Source: Nitrospirota bacterium (GTDB lineage: Bacteria; Nitrospirota; Nitrospiria; Nitrospirales; Nitrospiraceae). Taken from it: a stretch of DNA of 64,000 bases. Position numbers and translations under genes: made by a program. Location of the stretch: positions 43,396 to 107,395 of the forward strand of contig JAPLLG010000011.1 in NCBI GenBank assembly GCA_026387665.1, written 5' to 3'. The notes beneath the pieces are model-generated. The model did not search any database and had not been told where the DNA came from. It saw only the letters and a list, made by a program, of their open reading frames with translations. Numbering within the stretch: position 1 is the first letter of the stretch; each line of letters opens with the position of its first letter. Shown one piece after another: positions 3,780 through 56,112 of the stretch.

Positions 3780-4378
3780 GGTGCGGGCTGGAGCAGCTGT
3801 TCGACCGCCTGCTTGGCGCCGGTGAGAATCGAGGTCCCGTCGCCGACCAATAGGCTGTCGAAATTGTATTTAAGGAGCCGGCGCAGCCCCTCTTGGGCCT
3901 TCGTCACATCAGCGTACTTGTCCGCGGGCAGGAGGCTGACGGAACCGGCAGGCTTCCCGATCAAGGCATCGCCGACAATCAGCACGCCCTTCCGCTGCTG
4001 GATAAACAGGGCCGATTCGCCGGGAGACTTCTGGTCTTTCAGCTGAATCACCCAGATCCCGCCCGTGAGCAATTCCCCATCCTTGAACGTTTTGGTCGGC
4101 TTAAGATCCATCAGCGGCGCATCGACCTCCGGCACATACAACTGACAGCGAAACTCGTCTTGATACTTCACCGCTTCGCGGACATGATCGCGATTGGTCA
4201 CGATGATGTAATCGACGGGGCCGTTGCGGAGGACCACCGCGCTCGCGTCTCCCGTCATCGGCGGAGGATCGACGAGGATCTTATGTTCCCCGACCGTCAG
4301 GAAGAGCCCGTTGAAGTCGAGTTGCTTCTCCTCAGAGAACCAGGACCATTGCCAGATACCGGGAAGGATGTTTTTCAT
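3776..4378 (-). CDS. MBL-fold metallo-hydrolase-like protein
   Basis: 200 aa. IIVTNRDHVRE and LIVGDAL segments resemble a degenerate beta-lactamase-fold motif. Overlaps the TPR gene by 4 nt. Confidence 0.5.
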   Translation of the reverse strand: MKNILPGIWQWSWFSEEKQLDFNGLFLTVGEHKILVDPPPMTGDASAVVLRNGPVDYIIVTNRDHVREAVKYQDEFRCQLYVPEVDAPLMDLKPTKTFKDGELLTGGIWVIQLKDQKSPGESALFIQQRKGVLIVGDALIGKPAGSVSLLPADKYADVTKAQEGLRRLLKYNFDSLLVGDGTSILTGAKQAVEQLLQPAP

Positions 4379-38865: not shown

Positions 38866-39306
38866 CTAGAAGGTCTTGTACTCCAGCCACTTCCCGTTCA
38901 GCGTAATTTTGCAGCGGGCTTCGCCCTGGCTGCCGGTCACCTTTTCCATGTCGAGCGTAAAGTCGATTGCGCTCATGATGCCATCGCCGAACATTTCGTT
39001 CGCCTGCTCGCGCATCGAGTCTCCATACACCCCGATGATCTCCATCAAGCGATACTTGAACGGATCGGTCGCATTCGGGAAATCGGTGCGAACCGGGAAT
39101 TTGCTCAGCGACGCGGTGAGCTCTGCATCCAGCCCCAACAGATCGCCAACTTTCTTCGCGTCCTCAGCCGGCAGCTTGTGGGTTCCCTGCAACACCGCGG
39201 CGACGAACGTGGGATTTCGCCCGACCACTTTGGCCACCTCCGCGATCGTCACCTTCTTCTCCAACCGCTTGGCTTTAATCGCGTCCTTCGGCTTCTTCGC
39301 TTCCAT
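38866..39306 (-). CDS. cynS: cyanase (cyanate hydratase)
   Basis: CynS-like: N-terminal HTH-like half and conserved C-terminal catalytic half. ATG 39306 is preceded by AAGGAGGAG. Confidence 0.9.
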   Translation of the reverse strand: MEAKKPKDAIKAKRLEKKVTIAEVAKVVGRNPTFVAAVLQGTHKLPAEDAKKVGDLLGLDAELTASLSKFPVRTDFPNATDPFKYRLMEIIGVYGDSMREQANEMFGDGIMSAIDFTLDMEKVTGSQGEARCKITLNGKWLEYKTF

Positions 39307-39348
39307 CACATGCTCCTCCTTTGTTGATACCTGCCGACCATTGCTATT

Positions 39349-40197
39349 TCAGAACCTCACGACGAGCGGCTCAGCTGCTGGCGACTCCCCCTGCACACCC
39401 CTCTCACTCGCCACTCCGTGCGCGGCATGACGGACGAGAAAATGAATCACATGGTTCCTGATCTTGTAGTAGTGGGGATGTTCGATGACCGTATCTCTCG
39501 ACCTGGGGCGAGGGATCGTCACATCCACAATTTCCGCGACGCGCGATGAAGGCCCGTTCGTCATGAGCATGATGCGGTCGGACAAGAGAATGGCCTCGTC
39601 CACATCGTGCGTGACCATGAATACCGTGTTGCGCGTGGCATTCCACATCTGGACCAACTCCTCTTGAATGACTCCTCTGGTGAGCGCATCGATCTGGGCA
39701 AAGGGCTCATCCAGCAACAACACCTTGGGCTCGATTGAAAAGGCCCTGGCGAGACCGACTCGCTGCTTCATGCCCCCCGATAGGGCGATAGGCCGCTTAT
39801 CCTCAGCCCCCTTGAGGCCGACTAACGCAATGTACTTGTGCACATGCGCGACCACCTCTTCGTGCCCCCAATCCTGGTAGGCTGACCGGACAGCCAGAGC
39901 GATGTTCTCGAACACCGTCATCCAGGGCATGAGAGCAAAATTCTGGAAGACCACCATCCGGTCCAATCCGGGCCCTGACACCTCACGCCCATTCAAGATC
40001 ACTCCCCCTTCCGACAGGGTTTCCAACCCGGCGATGATGTTGAGCAGGGTGCTCTTGCCGCATCCCGAATGGCCGATCACGGTGACGAACTCGCCCTTAT
40101 CGACTTTCAAGGTCACGTCTTTGAAGATACAGACCTCTCCGCTTCCAGCATGACCGGGAAAAAACTTGCTCACATGGTCGACGACAAGAAATGACAT
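39349..40197 (-). CDS. ABC transporter ATP-binding protein (NrtC/CynD/SsuB-type)
   Basis: Walker A GHSGCGKST, ABC signature LSGGMKQR, Walker B LLLDEPF. Confidence 0.88.
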   Translation of the reverse strand: MSFLVVDHVSKFFPGHAGSGEVCIFKDVTLKVDKGEFVTVIGHSGCGKSTLLNIIAGLETLSEGGVILNGREVSGPGLDRMVVFQNFALMPWMTVFENIALAVRSAYQDWGHEEVVAHVHKYIALVGLKGAEDKRPIALSGGMKQRVGLARAFSIEPKVLLLDEPFAQIDALTRGVIQEELVQMWNATRNTVFMVTHDVDEAILLSDRIMLMTNGPSSRVAEIVDVTIPRPRSRDTVIEHPHYYKIRNHVIHFLVRHAAHGVASERGVQGESPAAEPLVVRF

Positions 40198-40200
40198 GGG

Positions 40201-41082
40201 TTACTCCTGATAGGTCACGAGACCGGCAAGTTTGTTGAACCCTGAATCCAGAATAACGCCCACGACCCCGACCACCAGGATGGCGAAGATGACCCCGGCG
40301 ATGTCGAGATTGTTCCATTCGATCCAACTCAGGTACCCGACGCCTAACTCCCCCAACAACATCTCTGCCGGCACCACGGCGACCAATGCGCTCCCGAACG
40401 AGATTCTCAGACCGTTCACGATCGTCGGGGCCGCCCCAGGTAAAATCACCCGATAGAGCCGCTTGAACCAGGAAAGCTGCAGAATAGCCGCGACGTGGAG
40501 ATATTCCTTTTTGAGTGAACTCACGCCGAACGCCGTCGTCGCCAGGGTCGGCCAGACGGCTGCCATGAATACGACCAGGATGGCTGTCCACTTGGGATCC
40601 TTGACTGTGTACAGGAGCAAGGGCATCCAGGCCAACGGCGAGATCGGCTTCAAGATTTGAATGAAGGGGTTGACGGCTCGGAAGAGCACGCGGTTCAGCC
40701 CCAGCAGGATGCCGAAGAGGATCGCCACGACCGACGCTGCGAGGAACCCCGCGGCAAATCTCGAGACCGTGTACAAGACCAGGTAGGCGATGCCGTGGTC
40801 GTTGGTTCCCTTGATGACGAACGCCTCACCCAATTCAGTTCTCGCCTTCTCCACCACCGCGAGGGGACCCGGCACCCCCTTCATCTTCTCAGGGTTCCAG
40901 GCGTAGCCTCCTTCGCCCGTTCGGACGATGTCTCCGTTGAACTCCATCATCTGCAGTTGCTCGTCCGTCTTGCCCTTCGCATCGAAGGACGACCGTAGCG
41001 TGAGCAAATGCCACCCGCCGAGGAAGACCAGGAGGATAAACCCCCTGATCAGCCACGGATTGCCGTTATCAATTGTTTTCAT
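40201..41082 (-). CDS. ABC transporter permease (NrtB/CynB-type)
   Basis: 293 aa multi-TM BPD-transporter-like protein, in an operon with the ATPase and binding protein. Confidence 0.85.
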   Translation of the reverse strand: MKTIDNGNPWLIRGFILLVFLGGWHLLTLRSSFDAKGKTDEQLQMMEFNGDIVRTGEGGYAWNPEKMKGVPGPLAVVEKARTELGEAFVIKGTNDHGIAYLVLYTVSRFAAGFLAASVVAILFGILLGLNRVLFRAVNPFIQILKPISPLAWMPLLLYTVKDPKWTAILVVFMAAVWPTLATTAFGVSSLKKEYLHVAAILQLSWFKRLYRVILPGAAPTIVNGLRISFGSALVAVVPAEMLLGELGVGYLSWIEWNNLDIAGVIFAILVVGVVGVILDSGFNKLAGLVTYQE

Positions 41083-41103
41083 CGTGCTCTACCTCTTCAA
41101 CCA

Positions 41104-42438
41104 TTACGCCATACTGTGGATACTGAAACTACGGACGTAGGCGTCCGGTTGGCTCGCGTCGAACTCCCGGCCCATGATCGTATGCTTGGCCATCGTCCCC
41201 TGATGCGTCGGATATCCAAGCTCCTTGGCGATCCGGTCGCAGTCGGCTGCTCGATAGACTTGCTCTGCCACGGCTTTGTAATTGACCTCGCCCTTCAAGT
41301 GGCCCCACCGTTTCATTTGGGTCATGATCCAAATCGCCATCGAGTGCCAGGGATAGGGATCGAAATCGATACGGCTCGGGTCCTTTTTGATCGCGCCCAA
41401 TCCGTCCGCATAGGTTCCCGTCAACACTTGCTCCAAAACCGTCACCGGCTGATTCAAGTAATTCGTCGGCGCAATCGCCTCGGCAATCTCTTTCCTATGG
41501 GCCGGGTTGGATGCGTAGTGGGTCGCATCCACGATGGACCGGAAGAGCGCCAGGAACGTATTCGGATACTGCGTGGCGAATTCCTTGGAGATCGCGAAGC
41601 CGCAACAGGGATGCCGATCCCAGATCTCCTTGGAGAGCTTGAAGATGAACCCCGCGTTTTCGTACACAGCCCGTTGATTGAAGGGATCGGGGGCCAGATA
41701 GCCATCGACATTGCCCGCCTTCAGATTGGCCACCATCTCCGGTGGTGGCACCACGCGGATTTGCACGTCTTTGTCGGGATGCACGCCGCCCTCTGCGAGA
41801 AAATAGCGCAGGAGATAGTTATGCATCGAGTAATCAAACGGCACGCAGAAACGAAATCCCTTCATATCGGCGGCGGTTTTCACGCCCTTGTGTTTATTGT
41901 GCAGCGTGATCGCTTGGCCGTTAATATTCTCCACCGCCGGCATGTAAAACGGCACCGGGACGGAACCGGCGCCCAGCGTGATCGCTAATGGCATCGGCGA
42001 CAACATATGGGCCGCATCGACTTCTTTGTTAATCGCCCAATCGCGCACCATGGCCCAGCCGGCCGCCCGTTTGACCCTGGCATTCAGGCCATGTTTGCTA
42101 TAGAACCCCAGCGGTTCCGCCATGATGATCGGCGTGGCGCAGGTGATGGGAATAAAGCCGATGCTGAGGTCCGTCTTCTCCGGCTTCCCGACCGGATCGG
42201 CTGCAAATGCGGCGATGTGTTTTAGCGGGAGTAATTCAGCGATCAGGGCCGTTAGCGCAGCCGTGCCCATGGCTGCCAGGAACAGCCGGCGCGAGGGGTC
42301 GGCGGCTTGGATCACCGCCGCCGATACGGCTCGCTCGACGGTGCGTTCAAAATGCTCGTCGGAGGATTTGGCTTTCACGACACCGACTGCGGAGTCCGCT
42401 GGCATCTCCCGATTGTGCGCCCCATCTCCTTGGCTCAT
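41104..42438 (-). CDS. periplasmic substrate-binding protein, NrtA/CynA (nitrate/nitrite/cyanate) family, Tat signal
   Basis: 444 aa. SRRLFLAAMG twin-arginine signal and NMT1/NrtA-like body. AAGGAGG RBS. Adjacency to cynS suggests cyanate, but specificity cannot be read from sequence. Confidence 0.8.
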   Translation of the reverse strand: MSQGDGAHNREMPADSAVGVVKAKSSDEHFERTVERAVSAAVIQAADPSRRLFLAAMGTAALTALIAELLPLKHIAAFAADPVGKPEKTDLSIGFIPITCATPIIMAEPLGFYSKHGLNARVKRAAGWAMVRDWAINKEVDAAHMLSPMPLAITLGAGSVPVPFYMPAVENINGQAITLHNKHKGVKTAADMKGFRFCVPFDYSMHNYLLRYFLAEGGVHPDKDVQIRVVPPPEMVANLKAGNVDGYLAPDPFNQRAVYENAGFIFKLSKEIWDRHPCCGFAISKEFATQYPNTFLALFRSIVDATHYASNPAHRKEIAEAIAPTNYLNQPVTVLEQVLTGTYADGLGAIKKDPSRIDFDPYPWHSMAIWIMTQMKRWGHLKGEVNYKAVAEQVYRAADCDRIAKELGYPTHQGTMAKHTIMGREFDASQPDAYVRSFSIHSMA

Positions 42439-42516
42439 GACCGCCTCCTTTATGATGTTGCTGTGCCCTTTTCTCTACCGGCCTGCCTGAGTCCAACCGA
42501 CTGACCTGCGTACAAT

Positions 42517-42714
42517 AAAAAAACGTCCTCACTCCGTTGCCAGAATGAGGACGCCATTGTCCTACTCGGAGGTGGCAGAGCCACCTCGATCCAAGACTTC
42601 CTCGTCTCGGAATGGGTCACCAAACAGAACGGCGTCCGCCACTCTTTCCAGAATGACGGACGCCGTTGTCCGTGTGCCTTATGTCGAGAACTTCACCGAG
42701 GCGCCATTGCCTCG
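42517..42714 (-). promoter_or_regulatory. ANTAR-type leader 2: tandem attenuators before the NrtABC-like/cynS operon
   Basis: Minus sense. Unit 1: P1 CGAGGC-AAUGGC-GCCUCG (42697-42714), 23-nt linker, P2 ACGGAC-AACGGC-GUCCGU (42656-42673), overlapping hairpin AACGGCGUCCG...CGGACGCCGUU + cUGUUUGG. Unit 2: AGGAC-AAUGGC-GUCCU (42547-42564) overlaps the terminator CGUCCUCA...UGAGGACG + UUUUUUU (42517-42553). Confidence 0.7.
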
Positions 42715-42731
42715 ACTCAGCTCATAGGAGA

Positions 42732-42760
42732 CATGTACCATGCCTCCCCTCCTTCGTCAA
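42732..42760 (-). promoter_or_regulatory. candidate sigma-70-type promoter for leader 2
   Basis: Minus sense TTGACG-N17-TACATG, ending about 17 nt before P1. Same geometry as the candidate promoter before leader 3. Confidence 0.3.
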
Positions 42761-42788: not shown

Positions 42789-44198
42789 CTAGACATCGTA
42801 GTACAGGTAGAACTCATACGGGTGCGGACGCAACCGCATGGTATCCACTTCCTTGGTGCGCTTGTACCCGATCCAGGCATTGATCAAGTCCTTGCTGAAG
42901 ACCCCGCCCTTGAGGAGGAACTCATGGTCCTTCTCCAGGTTGTTCAAGGCTTCATCCAGGCTGCCTGGCATCGTGCGGATCTTCGACGCTTCCTTGGCTT
43001 CGAGATCGTACAGATCCTGCTCGGCCGGTTCGCCCGGATTGATCTTGTTCTGGATGCCGTCCAACCCCGCCATGAGCATGGCGGAAAAGGCGAGATAAGG
43101 ATTCGCGGCCGGGTCAGGAAACCGCACCTCGATCCGCTTCGCCTTGGGGCTCGGTGAATACATGGGGATCCGGATGCCAGCCGACCGGTTCCGGCTGGAA
43201 TAGGCCAACAACACCGGCGCTTCGAACCCTGGCGTCAGACGCTTGTAGGAATTCGTGGTCGGGTTGGTAAAAGCGGCCAACGCCGGCGCATGCTTCAGAA
43301 TGCCGCCGATGTAATGTAGACACATCTGCGACACGCCCGCATATTCCTTCCCGGCGAACAGGGGCTTGCCATCCTTCCAGATGCTCTGGTGACTGTGCAT
43401 GCCTGACCCGTTGTCTCCGAAGATCGGCTTCGGCATGAAGGTCGCGGTCTTGCCATGGCGGCGGGCGACGTTCTTGACGATGTACTTGTACATCATCATC
43501 TTGTCGGCGGTGCGGACCAGCGAATCGAAGCGGATGTCGATTTCCGCCTGACCGGCCGTGGCGACTTCATGGTGATGCTTCTCGATCTGGATGCCGGCCT
43601 TCTCCATCTCCAGAATCATTTCGCTGCGGATATCCTGTTGCGTATCGGTCGGGGCGACCGGGAAATAGCCTTCCTTCTGACGGATCTTGCCGCCCAGGTT
43701 GTGGCCTTCCTGCCCCATATTCCAGACGCCTTCTTCGGAGTCGATGAAGTAGTAGCCGCTGTGGCCGTTCTGATCGTAGCGGGCTTGATCGAAAATGAAG
43801 AACTCGGCTTCCGGGCCCCAATAGGACGTGTCGCCGATCTTCGTGCTCTTGAGGTATTTCTCCGCCTTCTGCGCCACATAGCGCGGATCGCGATCGTAGG
43901 TCTCGCGCGTAATCGGATCGACGACGTTGCCGATGAGGCTCAGCGTCGGGACCGCACAGAAGGGATCGAGACAGGCCGTCGCCGGATCCGGCACGACCAA
44001 CATGTCGCTGTTATTGATGGCCTTCCAGCCACGAATGGAGGAGCCGTCCAATCCGGACCCGTCCTTGAAGAGGTCTTCCGTCAATTCGCTCGTCGGGATG
44101 CTGAAATGCTGCCACGTCCCGATGAGATCGACGAACTTCAAGTCCACGATCTGGACCTTATGCTTCTTCACATACTCCAACACCTCACGTACGTTCAT
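42789..44198 (-). CDS. glnA: glutamine synthetase type I
   Basis: 469 aa with canonical GSI motifs. Includes a NLYDLP-like adenylylation-loop region ([11 protein letters not shown]). Confidence 0.95.
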
Positions 44199-44244: not shown

Positions 44245-46929
44245 CTAGGCCGCTTTCGCCTCGAGAAAATTCTCGATGGCCGTTTCAACTCCCGTTCGTA
44301 CCCGCTCCAATTGTCCGTGATCGTCGAGCTTCTTGCCCCGATGATCCGCGACATAAAACACGTCCGCCACCTGATCCAGCCTCGTGGAAATGCGGGCGGC
44401 ATGGATGGATAACCCAAGCTGAAAAATCGTGTTCGTGATCACATACAACAGACCCTGCCGGTCGTCGGCAAACACGTCGAGGATCGTATAGGCGTCCGAC
44501 GTTTCATTGTCGATCCGCACCTCCGTCGCTTCACGGGCTTTCGGCAAGGATCTCGTCAGCTTCAGCCGCGCGCCCCGGCGCAACACATCATCGACATGCT
44601 CCCAACCCTTGAGGACCGACGCAATCCGGTCGCCCACCGTCCGCAACCGCTCGGCCGGAGGGGCGCCCTGATAGTCCGGATCCATCACCTGAAACGTATC
44701 GACCACGATTCCATCGACTCTGGTGAGAATCTGCGCATCGAGAATCTGCACCCCGCTGCCGGCCATGACCCCGGCGATCTTCGAGAAAATGCCTGGCGTC
44801 ACGTCGTTATGGGTCACGACGCTATATTCGCAGGTTCCCAGCTCACTATTGAACTCCGCCTCCACCAGCACCTCGCCGACATGCAATCGTCGCACAGCCG
44901 CCAAATGCGCCGCAATACGGGCCGGCGACGTGCCATAGGCATAGCGTTCGGGGAATTGCCCCAACTGGCTCTCGACCCAGGCCAGAGTCCCACTTCCCTG
45001 CCCGGCCAGCAACGGATGGTTGCTGACCTCTTCGGCAATCTGGCGGACTCGCTCCGGAGCCATGACTCCATTCCGCTCCCCCGACACCTCGGCCATCGTG
45101 CGCTGATAGAGCTCGACCAGGAGCGATTCCTTCCACTTGGTCAAGACTCCGGGCCCGACCGCCGCGATATCGGCAGCCGTGAGCACCAACAGCTTATTCA
45201 AGACTTCCGGCGTCCCGACTTCGCGGGCAAAGGGCAGCACCACCTTCACGTCGTTCGGGTCCCGCCGAAAAGCCGTATGGGCCATCAGCAAATGCCGATG
45301 CACGAGGAACGACAGGGTCCGCAGATCCTGCTCATCAAGCCCGAGCCGGTCCGCGACATCCTCAGCTAAACGCCGCCCCACATCGCTATGATCTTCTTCC
45401 TGGCCCTTTCCCAAGTCGTGGAGCAGCACGGACAGGTGCAGGAGGTCCTTCCGCTTGATGCTGCGATAGATCTCCCCCATCGCCCCCTGGTCCTGGGCCA
45501 GGTCTTCCGCCCGCGCCACCGCGAGCAGACTATGCTCGTCGACCGTGTACTTATGGTACTGATTGAATTGCATCAGGCCACGGACCGTGCCCATGGCGGG
45601 CACCAGCTTTTCGAGCACTGAGGCCCGATGCATGGCCTCCAGGGTCTTGGCTGTGCCGGGCCCCGCGAGGATCGCCAAAAACGTCCGATTGACCTCCGGC
45701 GTCCGATAGGCCTCAGCCGAGACCGTATCGACATGCCGGTGAATATCTTCGAGTAGGGGCGGCGCGATGGTCAGCTGCTGCGAACGCGCCAAGTCGAACA
45801 GGCGAAGGAGCAGCGCCGGACTTTCCAGCACCCTCGCGCGATGGTCGTCCGCCACCGTCAGGATTCCGCCCCGTACGACAAAGTAGCCATCGACGCGGGG
45901 CGCCGGAAAAAACCGCGTGATCCGTTGCCAGAACGGCACACTCCGGCATCGTTCGACAAATCGCATACAACGCTCATGCAACCCCATCGTGTGCAGGTAA
46001 TACTGTTGCATGAACTGCTCGACGGCCAGTAAATGAGGCCGGTCCTGGAACCCAAAATGTTGTGCCAGCCAGATCTGCTCGTCGAACGACAAAATCTCCT
46101 GCGCCGTGCCTGCATGCACATGGAGGAGCGCCCGGACTCGCCAGAGGAAATCCCGCGCCTCTGTCAGGGCCATCGAATCGGCCCGTGAGAGGATGCCGCG
46201 ATCGGACAGCTCACGAATCGTCGGGGCCTGATAGCGGGCCATGCCGGCCCATTGGAGCAGGTGCAAATCACGCAGACCGCCTTTGCTTTTCTTGACGTTC
46301 GGCTCCAGCAAATAGACCGTCTCGCCGAACTTGAGATATTCGCGCCGGCGCTCTTCCAGCTTTTGATCCAAGTAGGTATCCGTGCCCTTGGCTACGATTT
46401 TCCGGAGATACCGGCTATGAAACTGCTCGAACAGCTCAGGGCTTCCCGCGAGAAACCGGGACTCCATCATCGAGGTCTTGACTGTCGCATCGCTCTCGGC
46501 CAGCTCCATACAATCGTTGATCGTCCGCACGCTATGTCCGACCTGAAATCCACAGTCCCACAAGGGATGCAGGACTGCTCGCACGAGCGATTCGACCTGC
46601 ATTTTGGCCTCAGGACGATAGAGCACCATCAGATCGATGTCCGAATAGGGGGCCAGTTCGCGGCGTCCGTACCCGCCCAGGGCCACGAGACAGCATTGGT
46701 GGAGACCGGCTGAGGCCGCCACATCGCCCCCCTCCCGCACGGCATTCCGATAGCGCCCCACGATCAGCCCATCCACCAGCTCCGTCATCGCCGCCATCGT
46801 CTCTGCGCCGCTGGAGCCAGCCATCACCCGCTGCGCAATGATGCGTCGCTGCTCAGCGAGGAACAGGCCGACCGTCGACGGATCGACGGTCGGCGCTGAC
46901 GTACTGGATGAATCGTGCGTGACGCCCAT
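44245..46929 (-). CDS. glnD: [protein-PII] uridylyltransferase/uridylyl-removing enzyme
   Basis: 894 aa. NT domain (GGYGRRELAPYSDIDLMVLY), HD domain (HDLGKG), and two C-terminal ACT domains. Confidence 0.92.
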   Translation of the reverse strand: MGVTHDSSSTSAPTVDPSTVGLFLAEQRRIIAQRVMAGSSGAETMAAMTELVDGLIVGRYRNAVREGGDVAASAGLHQCCLVALGGYGRRELAPYSDIDLMVLYRPEAKMQVESLVRAVLHPLWDCGFQVGHSVRTINDCMELAESDATVKTSMMESRFLAGSPELFEQFHSRYLRKIVAKGTDTYLDQKLEERRREYLKFGETVYLLEPNVKKSKGGLRDLHLLQWAGMARYQAPTIRELSDRGILSRADSMALTEARDFLWRVRALLHVHAGTAQEILSFDEQIWLAQHFGFQDRPHLLAVEQFMQQYYLHTMGLHERCMRFVERCRSVPFWQRITRFFPAPRVDGYFVVRGGILTVADDHRARVLESPALLLRLFDLARSQQLTIAPPLLEDIHRHVDTVSAEAYRTPEVNRTFLAILAGPGTAKTLEAMHRASVLEKLVPAMGTVRGLMQFNQYHKYTVDEHSLLAVARAEDLAQDQGAMGEIYRSIKRKDLLHLSVLLHDLGKGQEEDHSDVGRRLAEDVADRLGLDEQDLRTLSFLVHRHLLMAHTAFRRDPNDVKVVLPFAREVGTPEVLNKLLVLTAADIAAVGPGVLTKWKESLLVELYQRTMAEVSGERNGVMAPERVRQIAEEVSNHPLLAGQGSGTLAWVESQLGQFPERYAYGTSPARIAAHLAAVRRLHVGEVLVEAEFNSELGTCEYSVVTHNDVTPGIFSKIAGVMAGSGVQILDAQILTRVDGIVVDTFQVMDPDYQGAPPAERLRTVGDRIASVLKGWEHVDDVLRRGARLKLTRSLPKAREATEVRIDNETSDAYTILDVFADDRQGLLYVITNTIFQLGLSIHAARISTRLDQVADVFYVADHRGKKLDDHGQLERVRTGVETAIENFLEAKAA

Positions 46930-46931: not shown

Positions 46932-47282
<351 letters not shown>

Positions 47283-47367: not shown

Positions 47368-48774
47368 TTATGAATAGGCCCGCTCATTATGCTGGCTGAG
47401 GTCCAGCCCGGTTGATTCGTCTTCCGGAGAGACCCGCAACCCCACCGTTATATTCACCACCTTCAAAATAATCCAGGTGCCGATCACGGAAAACAGCGCC
47501 ACCGCGCAAACCATGACGGCCTGAATGCCCAACTGTCCGGCATTCCCGAAAAAGAGCCCGTCAGCCCCGGCGGCATTGATCGCCTTGGAGGCGAATAGCC
47601 CTGTCGCGAGGATGCCGAAGACTCCGCCCACACCGTGGATTCCCACGACGTCAAGCGAGTCATCATAGCCCATCCTCCCCTTCCAAACAACGGCGAAATA
47701 GCACAGAAACCCTGCAAAAACGCCAATTACGATCGCTGAAAACGGTCCGATATAGCCGGAAGCCGGCGTCACAGTCGCCAGGCCGGCCACCGCGCCGCTG
47801 GCCAGACCGAGCACGGTGGGCCTTCCGCGATGGGCCCACTCCACCCCCATCCACACCAGGGCGCCAGTGACCGCCGCCGCATGGGTCGCCAGGAAGGTGC
47901 TCCCGGCCAGCCCATTCGCCCCCAACGCACTGCCCGCGTTGAACCCGAACCAGCCGAACCAGAGGAGGCCGGTTCCCAACAGCGTAAAGGGCAGGTTATG
48001 AGGAGCCATGTAATCGGCTCCATGGCCCTTGCGCTTTCCCATCACGATGGCGCAGACCAGGGCGCTCACCCCGGAACTGATATGCACCACCGCGCCGCCG
48101 GCAAAATCCAGCGCGCCCATCTTCCCCAGCCATCCACCGCCCCAGATCCAATGGGCCACCGGAGAATAAATCAACAGGGACCACAAGGCCGCAAACAGCA
48201 GCAGCGCAGAAAACTTCATCCGCTCCGCAAACGCCCCGGTGATCAGAGCCGGCGTAATCGCGGCGAACATGAGCTGGAATAACATGAACACTTGATGGGG
48301 AATCGTCGGGCCATAGACGGGATGCGGCTCGCTGCCCACCCCGCTAAGCCCAACCCACTCAAGGCCTCCGATGAAGCCCCCCTTATCGGGGCCGAACGCC
48401 AGGCTGTACCCGACAAGAATCCAGATCAGACTGACCAGACACAGAATGACGAGACTCTGCATGATCGTCCCCAGGATGTTCTTGCTTCGAACAAGACCCC
48501 CGTAGAAGAGCGCCAAGCCTGGCATCGTCATAAGCAAGACCATCGCCGTGGACATAAGAACCCATGCCGTATCCCCCGTATCGATCTTCAGCACAGGGGC
48601 TGCGGCAGCGGCGACCGCTTCAACCGGTGCGACCGCTGTGTCCTGAGCCACGACTGGCCCAGTAAAGGCCGCCATGACTCCCACCAGCAAGGCCGCGATG
48701 CTCAGGCCTGCGGACAGGAGCGTCCGTTGGTGCGTTCGCTTGCGACTACAGTCTCGTTCCTGGTCAATCACCAT
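47368..48774 (-). CDS. amtB: ammonium transporter
   Basis: Amt/MEP family motifs (DFAGG.VVH, GVHG.GG..G). ATG 48774 is preceded by GGAGAAGGAGGGG. Confidence 0.92.
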   Translation of the reverse strand: MVIDQERDCSRKRTHQRTLLSAGLSIAALLVGVMAAFTGPVVAQDTAVAPVEAVAAAAAPVLKIDTGDTAWVLMSTAMVLLMTMPGLALFYGGLVRSKNILGTIMQSLVILCLVSLIWILVGYSLAFGPDKGGFIGGLEWVGLSGVGSEPHPVYGPTIPHQVFMLFQLMFAAITPALITGAFAERMKFSALLLFAALWSLLIYSPVAHWIWGGGWLGKMGALDFAGGAVVHISSGVSALVCAIVMGKRKGHGADYMAPHNLPFTLLGTGLLWFGWFGFNAGSALGANGLAGSTFLATHAAAVTGALVWMGVEWAHRGRPTVLGLASGAVAGLATVTPASGYIGPFSAIVIGVFAGFLCYFAVVWKGRMGYDDSLDVVGIHGVGGVFGILATGLFASKAINAAGADGLFFGNAGQLGIQAVMVCAVALFSVIGTWIILKVVNITVGLRVSPEDESTGLDLSQHNERAYS

Positions 48775-48801
48775 CCCCTCCTTCTCCTCGGTCACCCCTG
48801 C

Positions 48802-50190
48802 TTACGAATAGGACCGTTCCTCATGTTGACTGAGGTCCAAGCCCATTCGCTCTTCCTCTTCACTCACACGCAGCCCCATCAATCCATCCACCAGTTTCAG
48901 AATCACGAAGGTTCCCACGAACGAAAACACCACCGAGATCAGCACGGCCATCGCTTGAATGCCCAACTGTGCCGGATTCCCGTAGAACAGCCCGTCGGCG
49001 CCGGCTGCATTGATCGCCTTCGAGGCAAACAACCCGGTCGCCAGCGCGCCCCAGATGCCTCCGACTCCATGAATCCCCACCACATCGAGGGCGTCATCGT
49101 AGCCCAGCCTGGACTTCCACAACACCGCTCCATAGCAGAGGACTCCCGCCCCCAGACCGATCACGATCGACGCCATCGGACCGACGAATCCCGAAGCAGG
49201 CGTAATCGCCACCAGCCCAGCCACCGCGCCGCTGGCCGCGCCCAGCACGGTCGGTTTGCCTCGATACATCCACTCCGCAACCATCCAGGCCAGCGCTGCA
49301 GTGGCTGCCGCCGTATTGGTCACAACAAAGGCGCTGGTCGCCAACGCTCCGGAAGCGACCGCGCTACCTGCGTTGAACCCGAACCAGCCGAACCAAAGCA
49401 GGGAGGCGCCCAGCACGGTCATAGGCAAATTATGCGGAGCCATATGTTCCTTGCCGTAGCCCAATCGCTTCCTCAGCACGATGGCACAGGCCAGGGCCGC
49501 AGCGCCGGAACTGATGTGGACGACCGTCCCGCCGGCGAAGTCCAGCGCTCCCATGTTTCGAACCCAGCCCCCGACCGCCCACACCCAATGGGCGAGCGGA
49601 TCGTAGATGAACGTCGCCCACAACAAAGTGAAGACCAGAAAACTGCCGAACTTCATCCGTTCGGCAAAGGCGCCGGTCATGAGGGCCGGCGTAATCACCG
49701 CGAACATCATTTGAAAGATCATGAAGGCTTGATGGGGCACGGTCGCGGCATAATCAGCGTTGGGCTCCAACCCGACGCCGTTCAGCCCGATCCATTCAAG
49801 CCCGCCAATCAGATGGGCCTTATCCGGCCCGAAGGCCAGACTGTAGCCCCACAAGACCCACTGGAGACTGATCAGGCAGAGAATGATAAAGCTCTGCATG
49901 ATCGTGCCCAAAGCATTCTTCGAGCGAACCATGCCGGCATAAAACAAGGCCAGACCTGGCGCCGTCATCGCCAGCACCAATGCCGTCGAGACCAATAGCC
50001 AGGTCGTGTCGCCCGTATCGATCTTCGTCTGGGCTGGTACGACCGCCGGGGCCGCCTCTTGGCCAAGAGGCGCCGTCGCTGCCGGAGCCGGAGCCCCCGC
50101 GTCTTGCGCATAGAGACCCGTCGCCCCGATCAGGATAGCGCAGGCCAGGACGGGAAGCATCGCGGTCATGATACGTGTAAATCGGTTCAT
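48802..50190 (-). CDS. amtB: ammonium transporter (paralogue)
   Basis: 462 aa Amt family protein with a signal-like N-terminus and a strong RBS. Confidence 0.92.
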   Translation of the reverse strand: MNRFTRIMTAMLPVLACAILIGATGLYAQDAGAPAPAATAPLGQEAAPAVVPAQTKIDTGDTTWLLVSTALVLAMTAPGLALFYAGMVRSKNALGTIMQSFIILCLISLQWVLWGYSLAFGPDKAHLIGGLEWIGLNGVGLEPNADYAATVPHQAFMIFQMMFAVITPALMTGAFAERMKFGSFLVFTLLWATFIYDPLAHWVWAVGGWVRNMGALDFAGGTVVHISSGAAALACAIVLRKRLGYGKEHMAPHNLPMTVLGASLLWFGWFGFNAGSAVASGALATSAFVVTNTAAATAALAWMVAEWMYRGKPTVLGAASGAVAGLVAITPASGFVGPMASIVIGLGAGVLCYGAVLWKSRLGYDDALDVVGIHGVGGIWGALATGLFASKAINAAGADGLFYGNPAQLGIQAMAVLISVVFSFVGTFVILKLVDGLMGLRVSEEEERMGLDLSQHEERSYS

Positions 50191-50213: not shown

Positions 50214-51518
50214 TTAGAAGAGGTAGATGATTTGGAATGACAGGGTTTCTTGATTGTTCACCGGTCGATTGCCATAGAGAAACACGTTCTTGTCTGATTT
50301 ATCGTACCGGAACTCGGTCCGCGTGATCAGAGAAGGAAATGGCTTGTATTGAAGCGTAAAGGTATTCTCCCAGAGTGTTTGAGCCGTCGGCGGGGCCGCG
50401 ACCGTCGCGGTCGCCCCCGCACAGGTATTGGTGCCTCCGGCAAACCCGAATGTTCCACTACAGGTCCGAGCCCCTCCCGCATCCTCGAAGATTTCCCCGC
50501 GGAATCTGGCGCTCCATTGATCGGTGAAATCATGGGTCAGGTAGCCGGCCAGCCCATTCCATCGAGCATTTCGTGATCGGTTGACCGTGCTCGCGTTCCC
50601 TTCATTCCCGTAGTAGGGCTCCAGAACGATCGTGTCCTGGTCGGTGGCCTTGACGGTCATGATCGTCCCCACCACCGTCCGCTTGGCCGTCGGATCGGCG
50701 CCGGTGGAGGCAGGTGCCGTCCCTTGGCTGTTGGATTGCTCTGCGCCGTAGGACCCGTAGAAACTCATACCGAACTTCTCATGCGGTGTCAGAGCCAGGA
50801 GCCACTCAAAGGATTTGCTCTTGTTGTTATCCGTCACGTTATCCCACCCGTTGATCACGCCGATCGAGGCAGTCACAAGCGGATTGAACGTATAGCTGAG
50901 CCGGACGCCGGTGGTCGTGAAGGCCTGACCCAAGCCGAACATGAAACTGCGGGAAAAGTTCGGGTTCTCGAAACTGTTGATCACCTCATAGCCGATCAAC
51001 GTATTGATCTTCCCTGCTTGAATCTTCAGGCCATTGCCAACCGGGGCGATGTATTCGCCGTAGACCTCTTGAAAGTCGAGCTCGTTGTTGCTGGTGCCTG
51101 GCGCGAAATTGGTACGCGCCCTCGTCACCCTGGCATCCAACCCGAAGTTCAGCCTGGTACGGAACCCGAGCCGGTCCATGCCGCTCCCCGCTCCATCAGC
51201 AGGCCGTTCAAGCATGATTTGCACCATGTGGGTCGAAAAGGAATTCGCATCGGTGTCGAAGATATGCAGTTGATTGAGATTGGTATTGGGATTATTGAAA
51301 TTGTGGGTATAGGCTACATCCAGAAACCCGGAGGCCTTGAATCCCAAGGTCTTCCAGATGGACGGCGCATCCACTTTCTTCTCTAAGGAATCCAGCCGCT
51401 CCTGCACGGTCGGCGCCGGGGCCGGCGGCGCCGCTGGCCCTTGGGCAAATACTGCGTTGCCGCCGAGCAGCGACAACAGCGCCCACAATCCTATACAGAT
51501 GAGACTGCGTACTGACAT
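50214..51518 (-). CDS. outer-membrane porin (nitrogen-cluster associated)
   Basis: Start set at ATG 51518 (MSVRSLICIGLWALLSLLGGNAVFAQG signal peptide, GGAGGA RBS). Beta-strand-rich with a terminal ...FQIIYLF. The longer track ORF translates the leader RNA. Confidence 0.75.
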   Translation of the reverse strand: MSVRSLICIGLWALLSLLGGNAVFAQGPAAPPAPAPTVQERLDSLEKKVDAPSIWKTLGFKASGFLDVAYTHNFNNPNTNLNQLHIFDTDANSFSTHMVQIMLERPADGAGSGMDRLGFRTRLNFGLDARVTRARTNFAPGTSNNELDFQEVYGEYIAPVGNGLKIQAGKINTLIGYEVINSFENPNFSRSFMFGLGQAFTTTGVRLSYTFNPLVTASIGVINGWDNVTDNNKSKSFEWLLALTPHEKFGMSFYGSYGAEQSNSQGTAPASTGADPTAKRTVVGTIMTVKATDQDTIVLEPYYGNEGNASTVNRSRNARWNGLAGYLTHDFTDQWSARFRGEIFEDAGGARTCSGTFGFAGGTNTCAGATATVAAPPTAQTLWENTFTLQYKPFPSLITRTEFRYDKSDKNVFLYGNRPVNNQETLSFQIIYLF

Positions 51519-51711
51519 AGTGACATCCTCCCTCGTCCGATTGGTGATTCCGTTGCTCATGCCCCTTGCCGCTCTCACCTCGACGACGTCGTCGCCACGC
51601 ACGCCCTTGTGCGCAATCTCTCTCCCCTCACGTCCAGATCGATTCCACCAGCCAACCGATCCATCTCGATTCTCAGCTTTTCCACGCGATTCAGCCTGCT
51701 CGAGTGTAGTC

Positions 51712-51803
51712 AAAAAAAAACGCCCTCTAGCCCGCTGGGGCTGGAGGACGCCATTGTCCATGCCGTACTATCTTGAGGCCGGTGGGAAACGCCGTTGTTC
51801 CCC
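51712..51803 (-). promoter_or_regulatory. ANTAR-type antiterminator/terminator leader 3 (before porin-amt-amt-glnB-glnD-glnA)
   Basis: Minus sense. P1 is GGGGAAC-AACGGC-GUUUCCC (51784-51803), followed by a ~23-nt linker. P2 is GGAC-AAUGGC-GUCC (51746-51759). The terminator CGUCCUC-c-AGCCC-cagc-GGGCU-a-GAGGGCG + U9 (51712-51750) reuses the 3' arm of P2. Confidence 0.7.
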
Positions 51804-51818
51804 TGTCCGATGGGCCAC

Positions 51819-54846: not shown

Positions 54847-56112
54847 TTAGTGCCTGACTCGATCGGCCCGTTCTTCGATATCGCCCGCGAGGAGAATCGC
54901 CTCGGCGATCTCGCGCATCGATTTCCGAAGATCCATACTTTGGCGTTGAATGAGCTTGAAGGCCTCTTCTTCGGTCAGCTTCTTCGCACGCATGAGATAA
55001 CCCTTGGCCCGCTCCATGAGCTTCCGAACCGCCAGCGCTTCCTGCATCTCGAAGGACTTCTCGATCAGGGTCGTATGCTCGATGGCGATGGCCGCCTGAT
55101 TCGCGATGGCCTGGAGTAGCTTGACCTCTTCGCTGGTAAACACGTGAGGCACGGCCGTATAGCTATTGATCACCCCCACAGCCTTTTCCCGCACCATCAT
55201 CGGGACAGAGACCATCGAACAGAGCCCTTCCTTCTTGGCCAAATCCGGGAACATATAGTCCTGCTCTTTAGTCACGTCGGCCACAATGATCGGCCTGCGA
55301 TCTTGCACGGCGCGCCCGCTGATACTCTGCCCGACCTTGAGGTTCGGCTTCCGGCGGTATTGCTCGCTGAGGCTTTGCGTCGCCTCGATCCGCAACTCTC
55401 CACTCACCTGATCCAGCAACATGATCGAGCAGATCTTGGAATTCATCATTTGCGCGGTCATCGTGACCAGGAGTTGCAGCACATCTTCGATCAAACGATT
55501 GGAGGCCACCGTTTCCGACACCAGCGACAGGGTTTCCACCTGCAGGGCCTTGCGTTTCATTTGATCGTAGAGCCGCGCATTCTCAATCGCGCCACCGACC
55601 TGATTGGCAATAGTGGACAACAGCGCGATCTCGTCGGGCCGATAGCGCTTGGGACGCTTGTGCTGCACATTGATCACGCCAACCACTTCCTTCTTGGCCA
55701 TGATCGGCACGGAGACAAAGGCTTGATGGCGGTCTTCCGGAAGGTTGTGAAAAAACTTGAAGCGCGGGTCGTCGCTCGCATTGCTCGGAATCACAACGCG
55801 GGTCCGTTCCTGGGCTACCCACCCGGTGATGCCCTCGCCCAACCCGATCGTGATGCGGCCGATTAATTTCGGATGGGGATTCTTGGAGGCTCGCAGGATG
55901 AGTTCGTCCTGGCCATCCGACAAGAGATAGAGAAGACAGGCATCCGCCTTAGTGACTTCGACGACCACTTCGACGATATGCCGGAGGACGGCTTCAAGAT
56001 CCAGCTGGTTGCTGATCGATTCCGTGATCCGATGGAGCACATCGACTTCGCGTGTTTTTTCGCGCAACGCCTGCTGGAGATGAGCCACGGAGGGTGTGCG
56101 TTTGGTCGTCAT
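54847..56112 (-). CDS. GAF-GAF-ANTAR RNA-binding antitermination regulator
   Basis: 421 aa. Two GAF-like halves (each ending ..VGVIN...) followed by ALAVRKLMERAKGYLMRAKKLTEEEAFKLIQRQSMDLRKSMREIAEAIL. This matches the ANTAR consensus (..IE.AKG.LM....L.E.EA...L...SM..........A..I.). Confidence 0.88.
   Translation of the reverse strand: MTTKRTPSVAHLQQALREKTREVDVLHRITESISNQLDLEAVLRHIVEVVVEVTKADACLLYLLSDGQDELILRASKNPHPKLIGRITIGLGEGITGWVAQERTRVVIPSNASDDPRFKFFHNLPEDRHQAFVSVPIMAKKEVVGVINVQHKRPKRYRPDEIALLSTIANQVGGAIENARLYDQMKRKALQVETLSLVSETVASNRLIEDVLQLLVTMTAQMMNSKICSIMLLDQVSGELRIEATQSLSEQYRRKPNLKVGQSISGRAVQDRRPIIVADVTKEQDYMFPDLAKKEGLCSMVSVPMMVREKAVGVINSYTAVPHVFTSEEVKLLQAIANQAAIAIEHTTLIEKSFEMQEALAVRKLMERAKGYLMRAKKLTEEEAFKLIQRQSMDLRKSMREIAEAILLAGDIEERADRVRH

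What the first reader, a model, noticed from the sequence alone, without database searches (positions are those of the whole stretch)
42517..42760. Leader 2: two attenuators in series between glnA and the NrtABC-like/cynS operon
Seen, in minus sense: a candidate TTGACG-N17-TACATG promoter is followed after ~17 nt by P1, CGAGGC[AAUGGC]GCCUCG, which is a perfect 6-bp stem. After a 23-nt linker comes P2, ACGGAC[AACGGC]GUCCGU. P2 overlaps an 11-bp hairpin, AACGGCGUCCG/CGGACGCCGUU, with a weak U tract (cUGUUUGG). About 60 nt further there is a GAGGUGGC-ucu-GCCACCUC hairpin. It is directly followed by a third hexaloop hairpin, AGGAC[AAUGGC]GUCCU, that overlaps a strong terminator, CGUCCUCA...UGAGGACG-UUUUUUU. 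Both terminator loops begin with the same UCAUUCUGG string. Tandem attenuators would give a steeper or two-input response. The second unit has only one canonical hexaloop, which is unusual for ANTAR targets.
Basis: partly seen in the sequence, partly recalled or inferred. Interest (0 to 1): 0.65.

Follow-up and report, generated by a model that had tools for sequence, protein, structure and literature searches.

The report
Tandem ANTAR attenuators after glnA
The untranslated stretch between the glutamine synthetase gene and the cyanate-uptake/cyanase operon of this Nitrospira holds two transcription stop signals in a row. Each can be blocked by a small regulator-binding hairpin, a known kind of switch used twice in series, and more than 50 related genomes and metagenome contigs keep this layout.

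Summary
On the minus strand, 42760-42515 contains these elements in order:
- A conserved promoter, TTGACG-N17-(TGn)TACATG.
- A canonical ANTAR dual-hexaloop unit: P1 C[AAUGGC]G, P2 ACGGAC[AACGGC]GUCCGU, and an 18-bp terminator T1.
- A second unit: P2' AGGAC[AAUGGC]GUCCU overlapping a 15-bp terminator T2 followed by U7.

- It missed an 8-bp hexaloop hairpin, UCCGAGAC[GAGGAA]GUCUUGGA (42590-42611), 26 nt before P2'. A covariance model trained only on other genomes aligns this hairpin as the P1 of unit 2 (20 bits, against 42-73 bits for the three canonical units).
- The triloop hairpin lies in the linker between that P1 and P2'.
- UCAUUCUGG is terminator stem, not loop.

The tandem layout recurs in 21 Nitrospira genomes and 35 metagenome contigs. 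Wherever the upstream sequence is present it lies directly after glnA, and every contig long enough downstream carries a cyanase gene. T2, P1 and the linker hairpin show compensatory base changes. In relatives the P1-equivalent hexaloop keeps only G4, which is the one base the ANTAR domain contacts in the EutV-RNA structure.

N. moscoviensis RNA contigs running out of glnA end inside T1. A GAF-GAF-ANTAR gene lies 12 kb upstream. This is a new variant of a known mechanism. Function is inferred, not shown.

The parts
42789..44198 (-). glnA (glutamine synthetase), last gene of the upstream porin-amt-amt-glnB-glnD-glnA operon. No terminator lies between its stop codon and T1.
   Evidence: Pfam Gln-synt_C 461.8 bits. 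Sequence read.
42732..42760 (-). Conserved sigma-70-like promoter: -35 TTGACG (42755-42760), 17-nt spacer, TG (42739-42740), -10 TACATG (42732-42737).
   Evidence: TTGAC and TGnTA are invariant columns in the 21-genome alignment A2, while the flanks vary. The consensus scanner did not call it because the -10 lacks a final T.
42695..42716 (-). Unit 1 P1: 8-bp stem with hexaloop AAUGGC (A1, G4). An outer 5-bp helix extends it to 42688-42723.
   Evidence: Fold -11.3 kcal/mol. 5 of 8 pairs show compensatory changes. The core GAGGCAAUGGCGCC fits the Geobacter GnfR site CAGGCAANGGCGCC (PMC2995071) except at its first base.
42656..42673 (-). Unit 1 P2 antiterminator hairpin ACGGAC[AACGGC]GUCCGU.
   Evidence: -8.1 kcal/mol. 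The core is invariant in 21 genomes. Model R1 scores 72.8 bits over 42654-42718.
42619..42667 (-). Terminator T1: 18-bp stem (42628-42667) that uses the P2 loop and 3' arm, then a weak U tract CUGUUUGGU.
   Evidence: -37.8 kcal/mol. 98.7% of cells are paired across 21 genomes. P2-loop nucleotide 3 covaries with the 3' arm. N. moscoviensis RNA contigs end inside the orthologous hairpin.
42590..42611 (-). Unit 2 P1-like hairpin UCCGAGAC[GAGGAA]GUCUUGGA (G1, G4 hexaloop, closing C-G pair), 26 nt before P2'.
   Evidence: Model R1, trained without window sequences, aligns it as P1. Relatives have the same GAGAC/GUCUC stem with loops AGCGAU, AUUGGC, AGUGAU, AAUGAG, GAAGAA and GGUGCC.
42569..42587 (-). 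Linker hairpin H: GAGGUGGC-UCU-GCCACCUC, 5 nt before P2'.
   Evidence: A hairpin at this position is present in nearly all tandem leaders (one metagenome contig, L114, gave none), and 6 of 8 pairs are compensatory. In most relatives it carries a NNNGNN hexaloop.
42548..42563 (-). Unit 2 P2' antiterminator hairpin AGGAC[AAUGGC]GUCCU.
   Evidence: -5.6 kcal/mol. The core GGACAANGGCGUCC is invariant in A1.
42513..42555 (-). Terminator T2: 15-bp stem (42522-42555) that uses part of the P2' loop and its 3' arm, then a run of 7 U.
   Evidence: -24.7 kcal/mol. 98.6% of cells are paired and 7 of 14 pairs show compensatory changes.
38866..42438 (-). Regulated operon: NrtA/CynA-like binding protein (41104-42438), permease (40201-41082), ATPase (39349-40197) and cyanase cynS (38866-39309).
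   Evidence: Pfam. NCBIfam: cynS 137 bits against a cut-off of 113.3, and ntrCD 335 bits against a cut-off of 291.8.
54847..56112 (-). Candidate regulator: GAF-GAF-ANTAR protein (421 aa).
   Evidence: Pfam ANTAR 66.7 bits and two GAF domains. The first GAF resembles those of PtsP (EI-Ntr) and NifA. An 85% identical orthologue lies directly upstream of the nrtA leader in L031.

Best explanation
A conserved sigma-70-type promoter just downstream of glnA starts a leader that carries two ANTAR-type conditional intrinsic terminators in series.

In each unit a small hexaloop hairpin (P2, P2'), with the same core GGAC[AAYGGC]GUCC, shares its loop and 3' arm with a much more stable terminator. Without protein the terminators form. 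When the active regulator holds P2 and then P2' closed, RNA polymerase reads through both terminators into the cyanate-transporter/cyanase operon. The regulator is most likely the GAF-GAF-ANTAR protein encoded 12 kb upstream, and it probably senses nitrogen status.

Unit 1 is a canonical dual-hexaloop target with a leaky terminator. It is also the first terminator met by transcripts coming out of glnA. Unit 2 has a strong terminator and a relaxed recruiting hairpin whose hexaloop keeps G4 but not A1, with a stable hairpin folded into the linker. Because the two read-through probabilities multiply, basal expression should be lower and induction steeper than with one unit.

Shown here: the structures, their conservation and covariation, the presence of the regulator gene, and RNA contigs ending at T1 in a relative. 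Inferred: protein binding, the signal sensed, and the quantitative behaviour.
For: Anatomy and energies:
- P2 folds at -8.1 kcal/mol against T1 at -37.8. P2' folds at -5.6 against T2 at -24.7.
- There are 4 such units in the window and 0 in 60 shuffles.

Conservation:
- The tandem layout occurs in 21 genomes and in 35 metagenome contigs. It follows glnA on every contig that reaches upstream, and cynS lies downstream on 24 of the 35; the other 11 end before that point.
- Covariation: T2 has 7 of 14 compensatory pairs, hairpin H 6 of 8, and P1 5 of 8. P2-loop nucleotide 3 covaries with the T1 3' arm.
- The promoter bases TTGAC and TGnTA are invariant.

Model R1, trained on other genomes, finds exactly these four sites in the window. 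Unit 2 aligns at full length through the GAGGAA hairpin.

In relatives the P1-equivalent hexaloops of unit 2 vary at every position except G4. G4 is the only base-specific contact in the EutV-RNA structure (PMC8934654).

The P1 core fits the experimentally bound GnfR site CAGGCAANGGCGCC except at its first base (PMC2995071).

The ANTAR gene is confirmed, and its orthologue is adjacent to the leader in L031.

RNA evidence:
- In 4 of 4 N. moscoviensis runs the glnA contigs end at 3848-3875, inside T1 (3841-3881). No contig covers the next 250 nt.
- A lake metatranscriptome contig from a relative about 93% identical spans glnA through both units.
Against: - There is no direct test of binding or termination for this organism.
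- The RNA data are assembled contigs, not reads. Contig ends inside a strong hairpin could reflect reverse-transcription or assembly limits.
- The P1 loop of unit 2 has G, not A, at position 1. A1 mutations reduce EutV and NasT function (PMC3369931, PMC10783516).
- The P1-P2 linkers (21-27 nt) are longer than those EutV tolerates.
- The -10 hexamer ends in G, and the consensus scanner did not call the promoter.
- N. lenta and five other relatives manage with one unit, so the tandem is not obligatory.
Confidence: 0.7

Rival explanations
1. Division of labour. Unit 1 is mainly the (conditional) 3' terminator of the glnA operon. The short RNA ending at T1 (glnA 3'UTR, or about 105 nt from the internal promoter) is a stable small RNA with a role of its own, for example as a decoy that titrates the ANTAR regulator as EutX/Rli55 does. 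Only unit 2 is the real leader attenuator of the cyanase operon.
For: - T1 is the first terminator after glnA, and the tandem leader follows glnA wherever upstream sequence is present, whatever gene comes next.
- N. moscoviensis glnA contigs run into T1 and stop there.
- T1 is far more constrained in sequence than structure requires. 10 of 18 pairs never vary and GUCCGUCAUUCU is invariant, whereas T2 covaries freely.
- There is a weak full-length match to the Rfam family P11 (E = 0.016, far below its gathering score). From memory, P11 is a NasT-controlled leader seen as a small RNA.
Against: - The conserved promoter lies upstream of unit 1, not between the units. The inter-unit spacer is variable in sequence and length (46-91 nt) and has no conserved promoter-like motif.
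- Every transcript from that promoter must therefore pass both terminators.
- There is no evidence for a stable small RNA or for any trans target.
Confidence: 0.15
2. Two-input gate. Unit 2 is read by a different factor from unit 1, either a second ANTAR protein or a protein that binds the conserved linker hairpin. The operon would then need two signals, for example nitrogen limitation and cyanate or nitrite.
For: - Unit 2 consistently scores below canonical units (14-26 bits against 37-74 bits).
- The hairpin motif GRUC-GNNGNM-GAYC is found almost only in unit 2 of this leader.
Against: - P2 and P2' share the same invariant core GGAC[AANGGC]GUCC, which argues for the same reader.
- Only one ANTAR gene lies in the window.
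- The loop of the linker hairpin is not conserved in the window's own lineage. It is UCU, AGC, GGA or GUCUG.
Confidence: 0.08
3. Unit 2 is a decaying duplicate of unit 1 whose terminator acts constitutively, merely as a brake or insulator, without regulated read-through.
For: - In the window, P2'/T2 resembles P2/T1 (the shared string GUCC..UCAUUCUGG), which suggests duplication or gene conversion.
- The P1 loop has lost A1.
- Single-unit relatives exist, and N. lenta looks like a P1(unit 1)-P2'(unit 2) recombinant.
Against: - The P2' core is invariant, and T2 keeps pairing through 7 compensatory pairs in more than 50 sequences.
- The P1-equivalent loop keeps G4 throughout.
- A constitutive strong terminator in front of the operon would silence it.
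Confidence: 0.05

Closest known systems
EutV/EutW and the eut leaders of Enterococcus faecalis (ANTAR dual-hexaloop antitermination; PMC3369931, PMC8934654)
   Same: Two short hairpins with hexaloops. The second hairpin shares sequence with an intrinsic terminator. G4 of the loop is essential. The model of recruitment at P1 followed by capture of P2 applies. Several terminators in one locus answer to one regulator.
   Different: - The four eut terminators lie in front of different genes, not two within one leader.
- The eut linkers are 5-12 nt, against 21-26 nt here with a folded hairpin in unit 2.
- The eut regulator is REC-ANTAR, whereas the candidate here is GAF-GAF-ANTAR.
- The P1 loop of unit 2 has G at position 1.
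GnfK/GnfR antitermination of nitrogen-fixation and ammonium-assimilation leaders in Geobacter sulfurreducens (PMC2995071)
   Same: The bound site CAGGCAANGGCGCC matches the Nitrospira P1 core GAGGCAAUGGCGCC at every position but the first. Both systems control nitrogen-assimilation genes (glnK, amtB) by premature termination and its relief.
   Different: - GnfR is a phosphorylated response regulator.
- The Geobacter leaders follow sigma-54 promoters. Here the promoter looks sigma-70-like, although other Nitrospirales relatives do have sigma-54-type promoters with a single unit.
- No tandem layout is described in that paper.
NasR/nasF leader of Klebsiella oxytoca and NasT/NalA leader of Pseudomonas (PMC10783516; Chai and Stewart 1998/1999, cited in PMC2995071)
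   Same: A dual-hexaloop leader with A1/G4 in front of nitrate or nitrite assimilation genes. The attenuated leader accumulates as a short RNA. There is a weak Rfam P11 match, and from memory P11 equals NalA.
   Different: - Those leaders have a single unit.
- Their sensors are NIT or NasS/REC domains that respond to nitrate or nitrite.
Tandem riboswitches and tandem T-boxes, and the two BglG-controlled terminators of the E. coli bgl operon (from my own knowledge, not checked here)
   Same: Two complete terminator/antiterminator platforms in series, so that read-through probabilities multiply and the response sharpens.
   Different: Those are ligand-, tRNA- or CAT-domain-dependent, not ANTAR-dependent. 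The bgl terminators flank a gene.

Membership tests
ANTAR target RNA (dual-hexaloop antiterminator, as defined in PMC3369931) | Two stem-loops of at least 3 bp, each with a hexanucleotide loop | tested here: met
   Unit 1: P1 8 bp and P2 6 bp. Unit 2: P1-like hairpin 8 bp at 42590-42611 and P2' 5 bp.
ANTAR target RNA (dual-hexaloop antiterminator, as defined in PMC3369931) | A at loop position 1 and G at position 4 in both loops, unit 1 | tested here: met
   The loops are AAUGGC and AACGGC. Model R1 scores 72.8 bits.
ANTAR target RNA (dual-hexaloop antiterminator, as defined in PMC3369931) | A at loop position 1 and G at position 4 in both loops, unit 2 | tested here: not met
   P2' AAUGGC meets the rule. 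The P1-like loop is GAGGAA (G1, G4). The triloop hairpin cannot qualify. R1 scores only 20.2 bits. In relatives unit 2 scores 14-26 bits against 37-74 bits for canonical units.
ANTAR target RNA (dual-hexaloop antiterminator, as defined in PMC3369931) | Second hairpin overlaps the 5' arm of an intrinsic terminator, so the two folds are mutually exclusive | tested here: met
   Both units meet this. The overlap itself covaries: P2-loop nucleotide 3 pairs with the T1 3' arm. T2 has 7 compensatory pairs.
ANTAR target RNA (dual-hexaloop antiterminator, as defined in PMC3369931) | Short linker between P1 and P2 (5-12 nt in eut; lengthening abolishes EutV action) | tested here: not met
   The linkers in this window are 21-27 nt. 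In unit 2, 19 of the 26 nt fold into hairpin H. The family search model itself allows a variable linker.
ANTAR target RNA (dual-hexaloop antiterminator, as defined in PMC3369931) | An ANTAR-domain protein is encoded by the organism | tested here: met
   GAF-GAF-ANTAR at 54847-56112, ANTAR 66.7 bits.
ANTAR target RNA (dual-hexaloop antiterminator, as defined in PMC3369931) | The protein binds the RNA and relieves termination | not testable with these tools
   This needs EMSA, in vitro transcription or a reporter assay.
GnfR-type nitrogen leaders of Geobacter (PMC2995071) | Conserved site CAGGCAANGGCGCC upstream of, or overlapping, the terminator | tested here: met
   The window P1 core is GAGGCAAUGGCGCC, which differs only at the first base. 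Several relatives have CAGGCAACGGCGCC exactly.
GnfR-type nitrogen leaders of Geobacter (PMC2995071) | Regulator is a receiver-ANTAR response regulator with a partner kinase, and the promoter is RpoN-dependent | tested here: not met
   The only ANTAR protein in the window has GAF-GAF sensor domains. The promoter is TTGACG-N17-TACATG.
Tandem attenuators (two complete expression platforms in one leader) | Two terminators in series downstream of one promoter, each with its own antiterminator, and no promoter between them | tested here: met
   The inter-unit spacer is variable and has no conserved promoter motif. Independent function of each unit was not tested.
Rfam families (release 15) | Match at or above a family's gathering score | tested here: not met
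   There are no matches in the window. The best sub-threshold match is P11, 21.6 bits against a gathering score of 70.

The most novel reading that the evidence does not exclude
The two units form a relay rather than two independent switches. The canonical unit 1 loads the regulator onto the nascent transcript. The relaxed G4-only hairpins of unit 2 then serve as stepping stones that pass the same dimer on to P2'. The abundant T1-terminated RNA (glnA 3'UTR or short leader), whose sequence is unusually invariant, would act in trans as a buffer or decoy for the regulator. That would couple glnA transcription to the threshold of the whole ANTAR nitrogen regulon in Nitrospira.
Probability: 0.15. 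Interest if true: 0.7.

Novelty: new variant of a known kind. Interest (0 to 1): 0.45.

Why it matters
Nitrospira are the main nitrite oxidisers in soils, waters and treatment plants. How they regulate nitrogen assimilation is essentially undescribed: a full-text search found no relevant paper mentioning both ANTAR and Nitrospira.

This leader shows that cyanate and nitrite assimilation genes sit behind a double ANTAR gate that is physically fused to the end of the glnA operon.

The conserved asymmetry offers a natural test of the 'successive binding' model of ANTAR action (PMC8934654). Unit 1 pairs a canonical site with a leaky terminator. Unit 2 pairs a strong terminator with a recruiting hairpin that keeps only G4. 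The comparison can show which loop features are truly required, and it also gives compact parts for tight synthetic switches.

Tried and rejected
- **Leader peptide.** The window has a 10-codon ORF, UUG-MDRGGSATSE-UAG, with a GAGGAA Shine-Dalgarno-like sequence, ending exactly at P2'. It is not conserved in any of the 20 other tandem leaders, so I rejected it.
- **Promoter between the units.** The spacer is 46-91 nt long, variable, and without a conserved motif.
- **UCAUUCUGG as a shared loop motif.** It is stem sequence. CAUUC is invariant in T1, but most T2s read CUUCUCUC.
- **Triloop hairpin as an ANTAR site.** The loop is too small, and it varies (UCU, AGC, GGA, GUCUG) in the window's lineage.
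- **Rfam.** Nothing reaches gathering score. There is only a weak P11 match.
- **RNA evidence for the window's own organism.** Only two metatranscriptomes hold fragments, both from relatives. No raw reads were available, so no 3'-end mapping was possible.
- **Literature.** A first paper search was wasted because 'ANTAR' matched 'Antarctic'. A search for tandem terminators together with antiterminator proteins found nothing, and a 2025 review of RNA-binding antiterminators does not mention tandem terminators.

Full report
**Context**

On the minus strand the window reads as follows:
- porin (50214-51700)
- amt (48802-50190)
- amtB (47368-48795)
- glnB (46932-47270)
- glnD (44245-46929)
- glnA (42789-44198)
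- a 350-nt spacer
- NrtA/CynA-like binding protein (41104-42438)
- permease
- ATPase
- cyanase cynS (38866-39309)
- a formate/nitrite-family channel
- nirA

The finding concerns the spacer.

**Observation**

In RNA sense the spacer contains, in order:
- UUGACG (42755-42760), 17 nt, UACAUG (42732-42737).
- P1 GUCGAGGC[AAUGGC]GCCUCGGU (42695-42716).
- P2 ACGGAC[AACGGC]GUCCGU (42656-42673).
- Terminator T1 (42628-42667), an 18-bp stem that begins inside the P2 loop, followed by CUGUUUGGU.
- Hairpin GAGGUGGC-UCU-GCCACCUC (42569-42587).
- P2' AGGAC[AAUGGC]GUCCU (42548-42563).
- Terminator T2 (42522-42555), 15 bp, with a run of seven U.

The terminator scan calls exactly T1 and T2.

The energies explain the default state. 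P2 folds at -8.1 kcal/mol against T1 at -37.8, and P2' at -5.6 against T2 at -24.7.

The whole leader folds with z = -8.4.

A purpose-written scan looked for a hexaloop hairpin whose loop and 3' arm are the 5' arm of a U-tailed hairpin. It finds four sites in 64 kb: 51759, 42673, 42563 and 38799. All are on the coding strand in leaders, and none appears in 60 dinucleotide shuffles.

- T1 is 18 bp long, not 11.
- UCAUUCUGG is stem sequence, not loop.
- An 8-bp hexaloop hairpin, UCCGAGAC[GAGGAA]GUCUUGGA (42590-42611), lies 26 nt upstream of P2' and was overlooked.

**Comparison with relatives**

A protein-anchored scan gave 80 loci. In 21 Nitrospira genomes the gene after glnA is preceded by the same order of elements: promoter, P1, P2/T1, a variable 46-91 nt spacer, a hairpin, then P2'/T2. 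Two more loci, L006 and L031, show the layout by eye.

A DNA pattern joining the invariant T1 arm to a second P2 core found 35 further tandem leaders in metagenomes, 30 of them distinct. On the 30 contigs that reach upstream, the leader lies directly after glnA. The first gene after the leader is the ABC transporter, an FNT channel or cynS itself. cynS is present downstream on 24 contigs, and the other 11 end before that point.

In the unit 1 alignment, TTGAC and TGnTA of the promoter are invariant while the flanks vary. The sequence ACGGACAANGGCGUCCGUCAUUC is nearly invariant.

Pair counts are as follows:

| Helix | Cells paired | Pairs with compensatory change |
|---|---|---|
| P1 | 88% | 5 of 8 |
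| T1 | 98.7% | 1 of 18 (10 never vary) |
| T2 | 98.6% | 7 of 14 |
| Linker hairpin H | 82% | 6 of 8 |

The single compensatory pair in T1 joins nucleotide 3 of the P2 loop to the T1 3' arm. That is direct evidence that the overlap between antiterminator and terminator is under selection. The figure for hairpin H holds even though the window row is shifted in the alignment. The P2' core GGAC/GUCC never varies.

**What unit 2 is**

I built a covariance model from 30 canonical dual-hexaloop units of other genomes, with no window sequence in the training set. In the window it finds:
- The three canonical units, at 72.8, 58.2 and 42.1 bits.
- One further site, 42546-42613, at 20.2 bits (E = 0.016). 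This match is full length, and P1 is aligned to the GAGGAA hairpin.
- Next-best hits at only 11 and 8 bits.

Across relatives, canonical units score 37-74 bits and every unit 2 scores 14-26 bits. Unit 2 is therefore a consistent variant and not an accident of this genome.

Two architectures occur:
- **Type A, the majority.** The hairpin 5-8 nt before P2' carries a hexaloop. The loops include GCUGCA, GCUGUA, GGUGGA, GUCGGA, GUUGGA, ACUGUA, GGUGCC, GUGGCA, GGGGCA, AUUGGA and GCCGGA. Every position varies except G4, and the closing pair is C-G.
- **Type B, the window's type.** It also occurs in L003, L006, L084, L085, L088, L093, L095, L101, L105, L107, L112 and L114. A P1-like hairpin, usually with a GAGAC/GUCUC stem, lies 24-39 nt before P2'. 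Its loop is RNNGNN. The canonical A1/G4 forms are AGCGAU, AUUGGC, AGUGAU, AGGGCG and AAUGAG, and the G1/G4 forms are GAGGAA, GAUGGG, GAAGAA and GGUGCC. The linker folds into a stable hairpin with an arbitrary small loop.

The triloop hairpin of the window is that linker hairpin.

In the EutV-RNA crystal structure, G4 is the only base contacted specifically. A1 makes no contact, and a single hexaloop is the minimal site (PMC8934654). This fits a recruiting hairpin that keeps G4 only.

**Regulator**

The 421-aa protein at 54847-56112 has two GAF domains and an ANTAR domain. Its first GAF resembles those of PtsP (EI-Ntr) and NifA. It is the only ANTAR match in the window. Its 85% identical orthologue sits directly upstream of the nrtA leader in L031.

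The P1 core GAGGCAAUGGCGCC fits CAGGCAANGGCGCC at every position but the first. That consensus is the site bound by the ANTAR regulator GnfR in Geobacter nitrogen leaders (PMC2995071).

**RNA evidence**

No RNA run holds the window's organism.

In four N. moscoviensis RNA-seq runs, held as assembled contigs, the contig covering glnA runs past the stop codon and through the promoter, P1 and P2. It ends at 3848, 3868, 3870 or 3875, inside T1 (3841-3881). No contig covers the next 250 nt. Low-depth contigs reappear inside nrtA in two of the runs. This fits termination at T1 under those culture conditions, and it shows that T1 is also the terminator met by glnA transcripts. It is weaker than read-level 3'-end mapping.

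A lake metatranscriptome contig from a relative about 93% identical spans glnA, both units and 153 nt beyond. Read-through RNA therefore probably exists in nature.

**Mechanism proposed**

Transcripts from glnA and from the conserved promoter meet T1, which has a weak U tract in this genome, and then T2, which has a strong one. An active ANTAR dimer captured at P1 holds P2 closed. At unit 2 the G4-only hairpin and P2' do the same job. Only double read-through expresses the cyanate transporter and cyanase genes. Because the two probabilities multiply, the background is lower and the switch steeper than with one unit. The signal is probably nitrogen status sensed by the GAF domains. Binding, the signal and the quantitative effect are all inferred.

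**Rival explanations**

- Unit 1 as glnA terminator plus a trans-acting short RNA, with unit 2 as the true leader (0.15). The unexplained sequence invariance of T1 favours this. The promoter lying upstream of unit 1 argues against it.
- A two-input gate with a second factor (0.08). The identical P2 cores argue against it.
- A decaying duplicate (0.05). The conservation and covariation of unit 2 argue against it.

**Comparison with what is known**

The parts are those of ANTAR antitermination as described for EutV, NasR, NasT/NalA, AmiR and GnfR. Three things differ:
- Two complete units lie in one leader.
- The second unit is consistently relaxed, with only G4 kept and a structured linker.
- The likely sensor is GAF-GAF rather than a receiver or NIT domain.

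A 2025 review of RNA-binding antiterminators does not mention tandem terminators. My searches found no paper on ANTAR in Nitrospira or on tandem ANTAR attenuators.

Earlier notes of this scan report tandem ANTAR units in nitrogen leaders of other phyla. The layout is therefore probably widespread, though these are unchecked notes and not independent evidence.

**Verdict**

The feature is real and conserved, and it is a new variant of a known kind. Its functional reading is well supported by comparison but has not been tested experimentally.

Noticed in passing
window 42628-42667; alignment A2: T1 is much more constrained in sequence than pairing requires. GUCCGUCAUUCU is invariant in 21 genomes and 10 of 18 pairs never vary, whereas T2 covaries freely. 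No explanation so far. It might point to a trans role for the RNA that ends at T1.
   Followed up: partly
L004:3840-3925 (Nitrospira lenta): The single-unit leader looks like P1 of unit 1 joined to P2'/T2 and the downstream sequence of unit 2. This suggests a deletion by recombination across the repeated GGACAAYGGCGUCCG core.
   Followed up: no
L020, L021, L022, L027, L029, L038 (upstream of nrtA); L009, L018, L023, L025, L033, L039, L040: Other Nitrospirales place a sigma-54-type promoter (TGGCA-N-TTGCT) and a single unit CUGGC[AAUGAC]GCCAG in front of nrtA. Still others have no hexaloop unit; in those, the gene directly upstream of nrtA ends in a C-terminal motif (e.g. LGLTPRQVAYKMKKYGI) like that of NtrC-type sigma-54 activators, judged by eye. 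The control mode of the same operon appears to have been swapped between lineages.
   Followed up: no
L031:2409-3665: The GAF-GAF-ANTAR orthologue (85% identical) lies directly upstream of the nrtA leader. In that leader the first P2-type loop is GAUGAA (G at position 1).
   Followed up: partly
L003:2505-3824; L085-L087, L095, L101, L102, L107, L108, L113, L114: In many relatives, including ones whose GlnA is 100% identical to the window's, the tandem leader is followed by an FNT channel and cynS instead of the ABC transporter. In L003 a third, canonical unit then precedes nrtA. Gene order downstream of the leader is shuffled even among close strains.
   Followed up: partly
window 51719-51806: The ORF finder's ATG for the porin gene (51761) lies inside the P2/terminator of the upstream ANTAR leader, so the real start must be further downstream.
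   Followed up: no
window 42564-42598: A 10-codon ORF (UUG MDRGGSATSE UAG) with a Shine-Dalgarno-like GAGGAA ends exactly at P2'. It is not conserved in the other tandem leaders, so it is probably fortuitous.
   Followed up: yes
window 42674-42694; alignment A2 columns about 146-160: The unit 1 linker motif ACAUAAGGCA between P1 and P2 is conserved in most genomes, although it is not part of any predicted helix.
   Followed up: no
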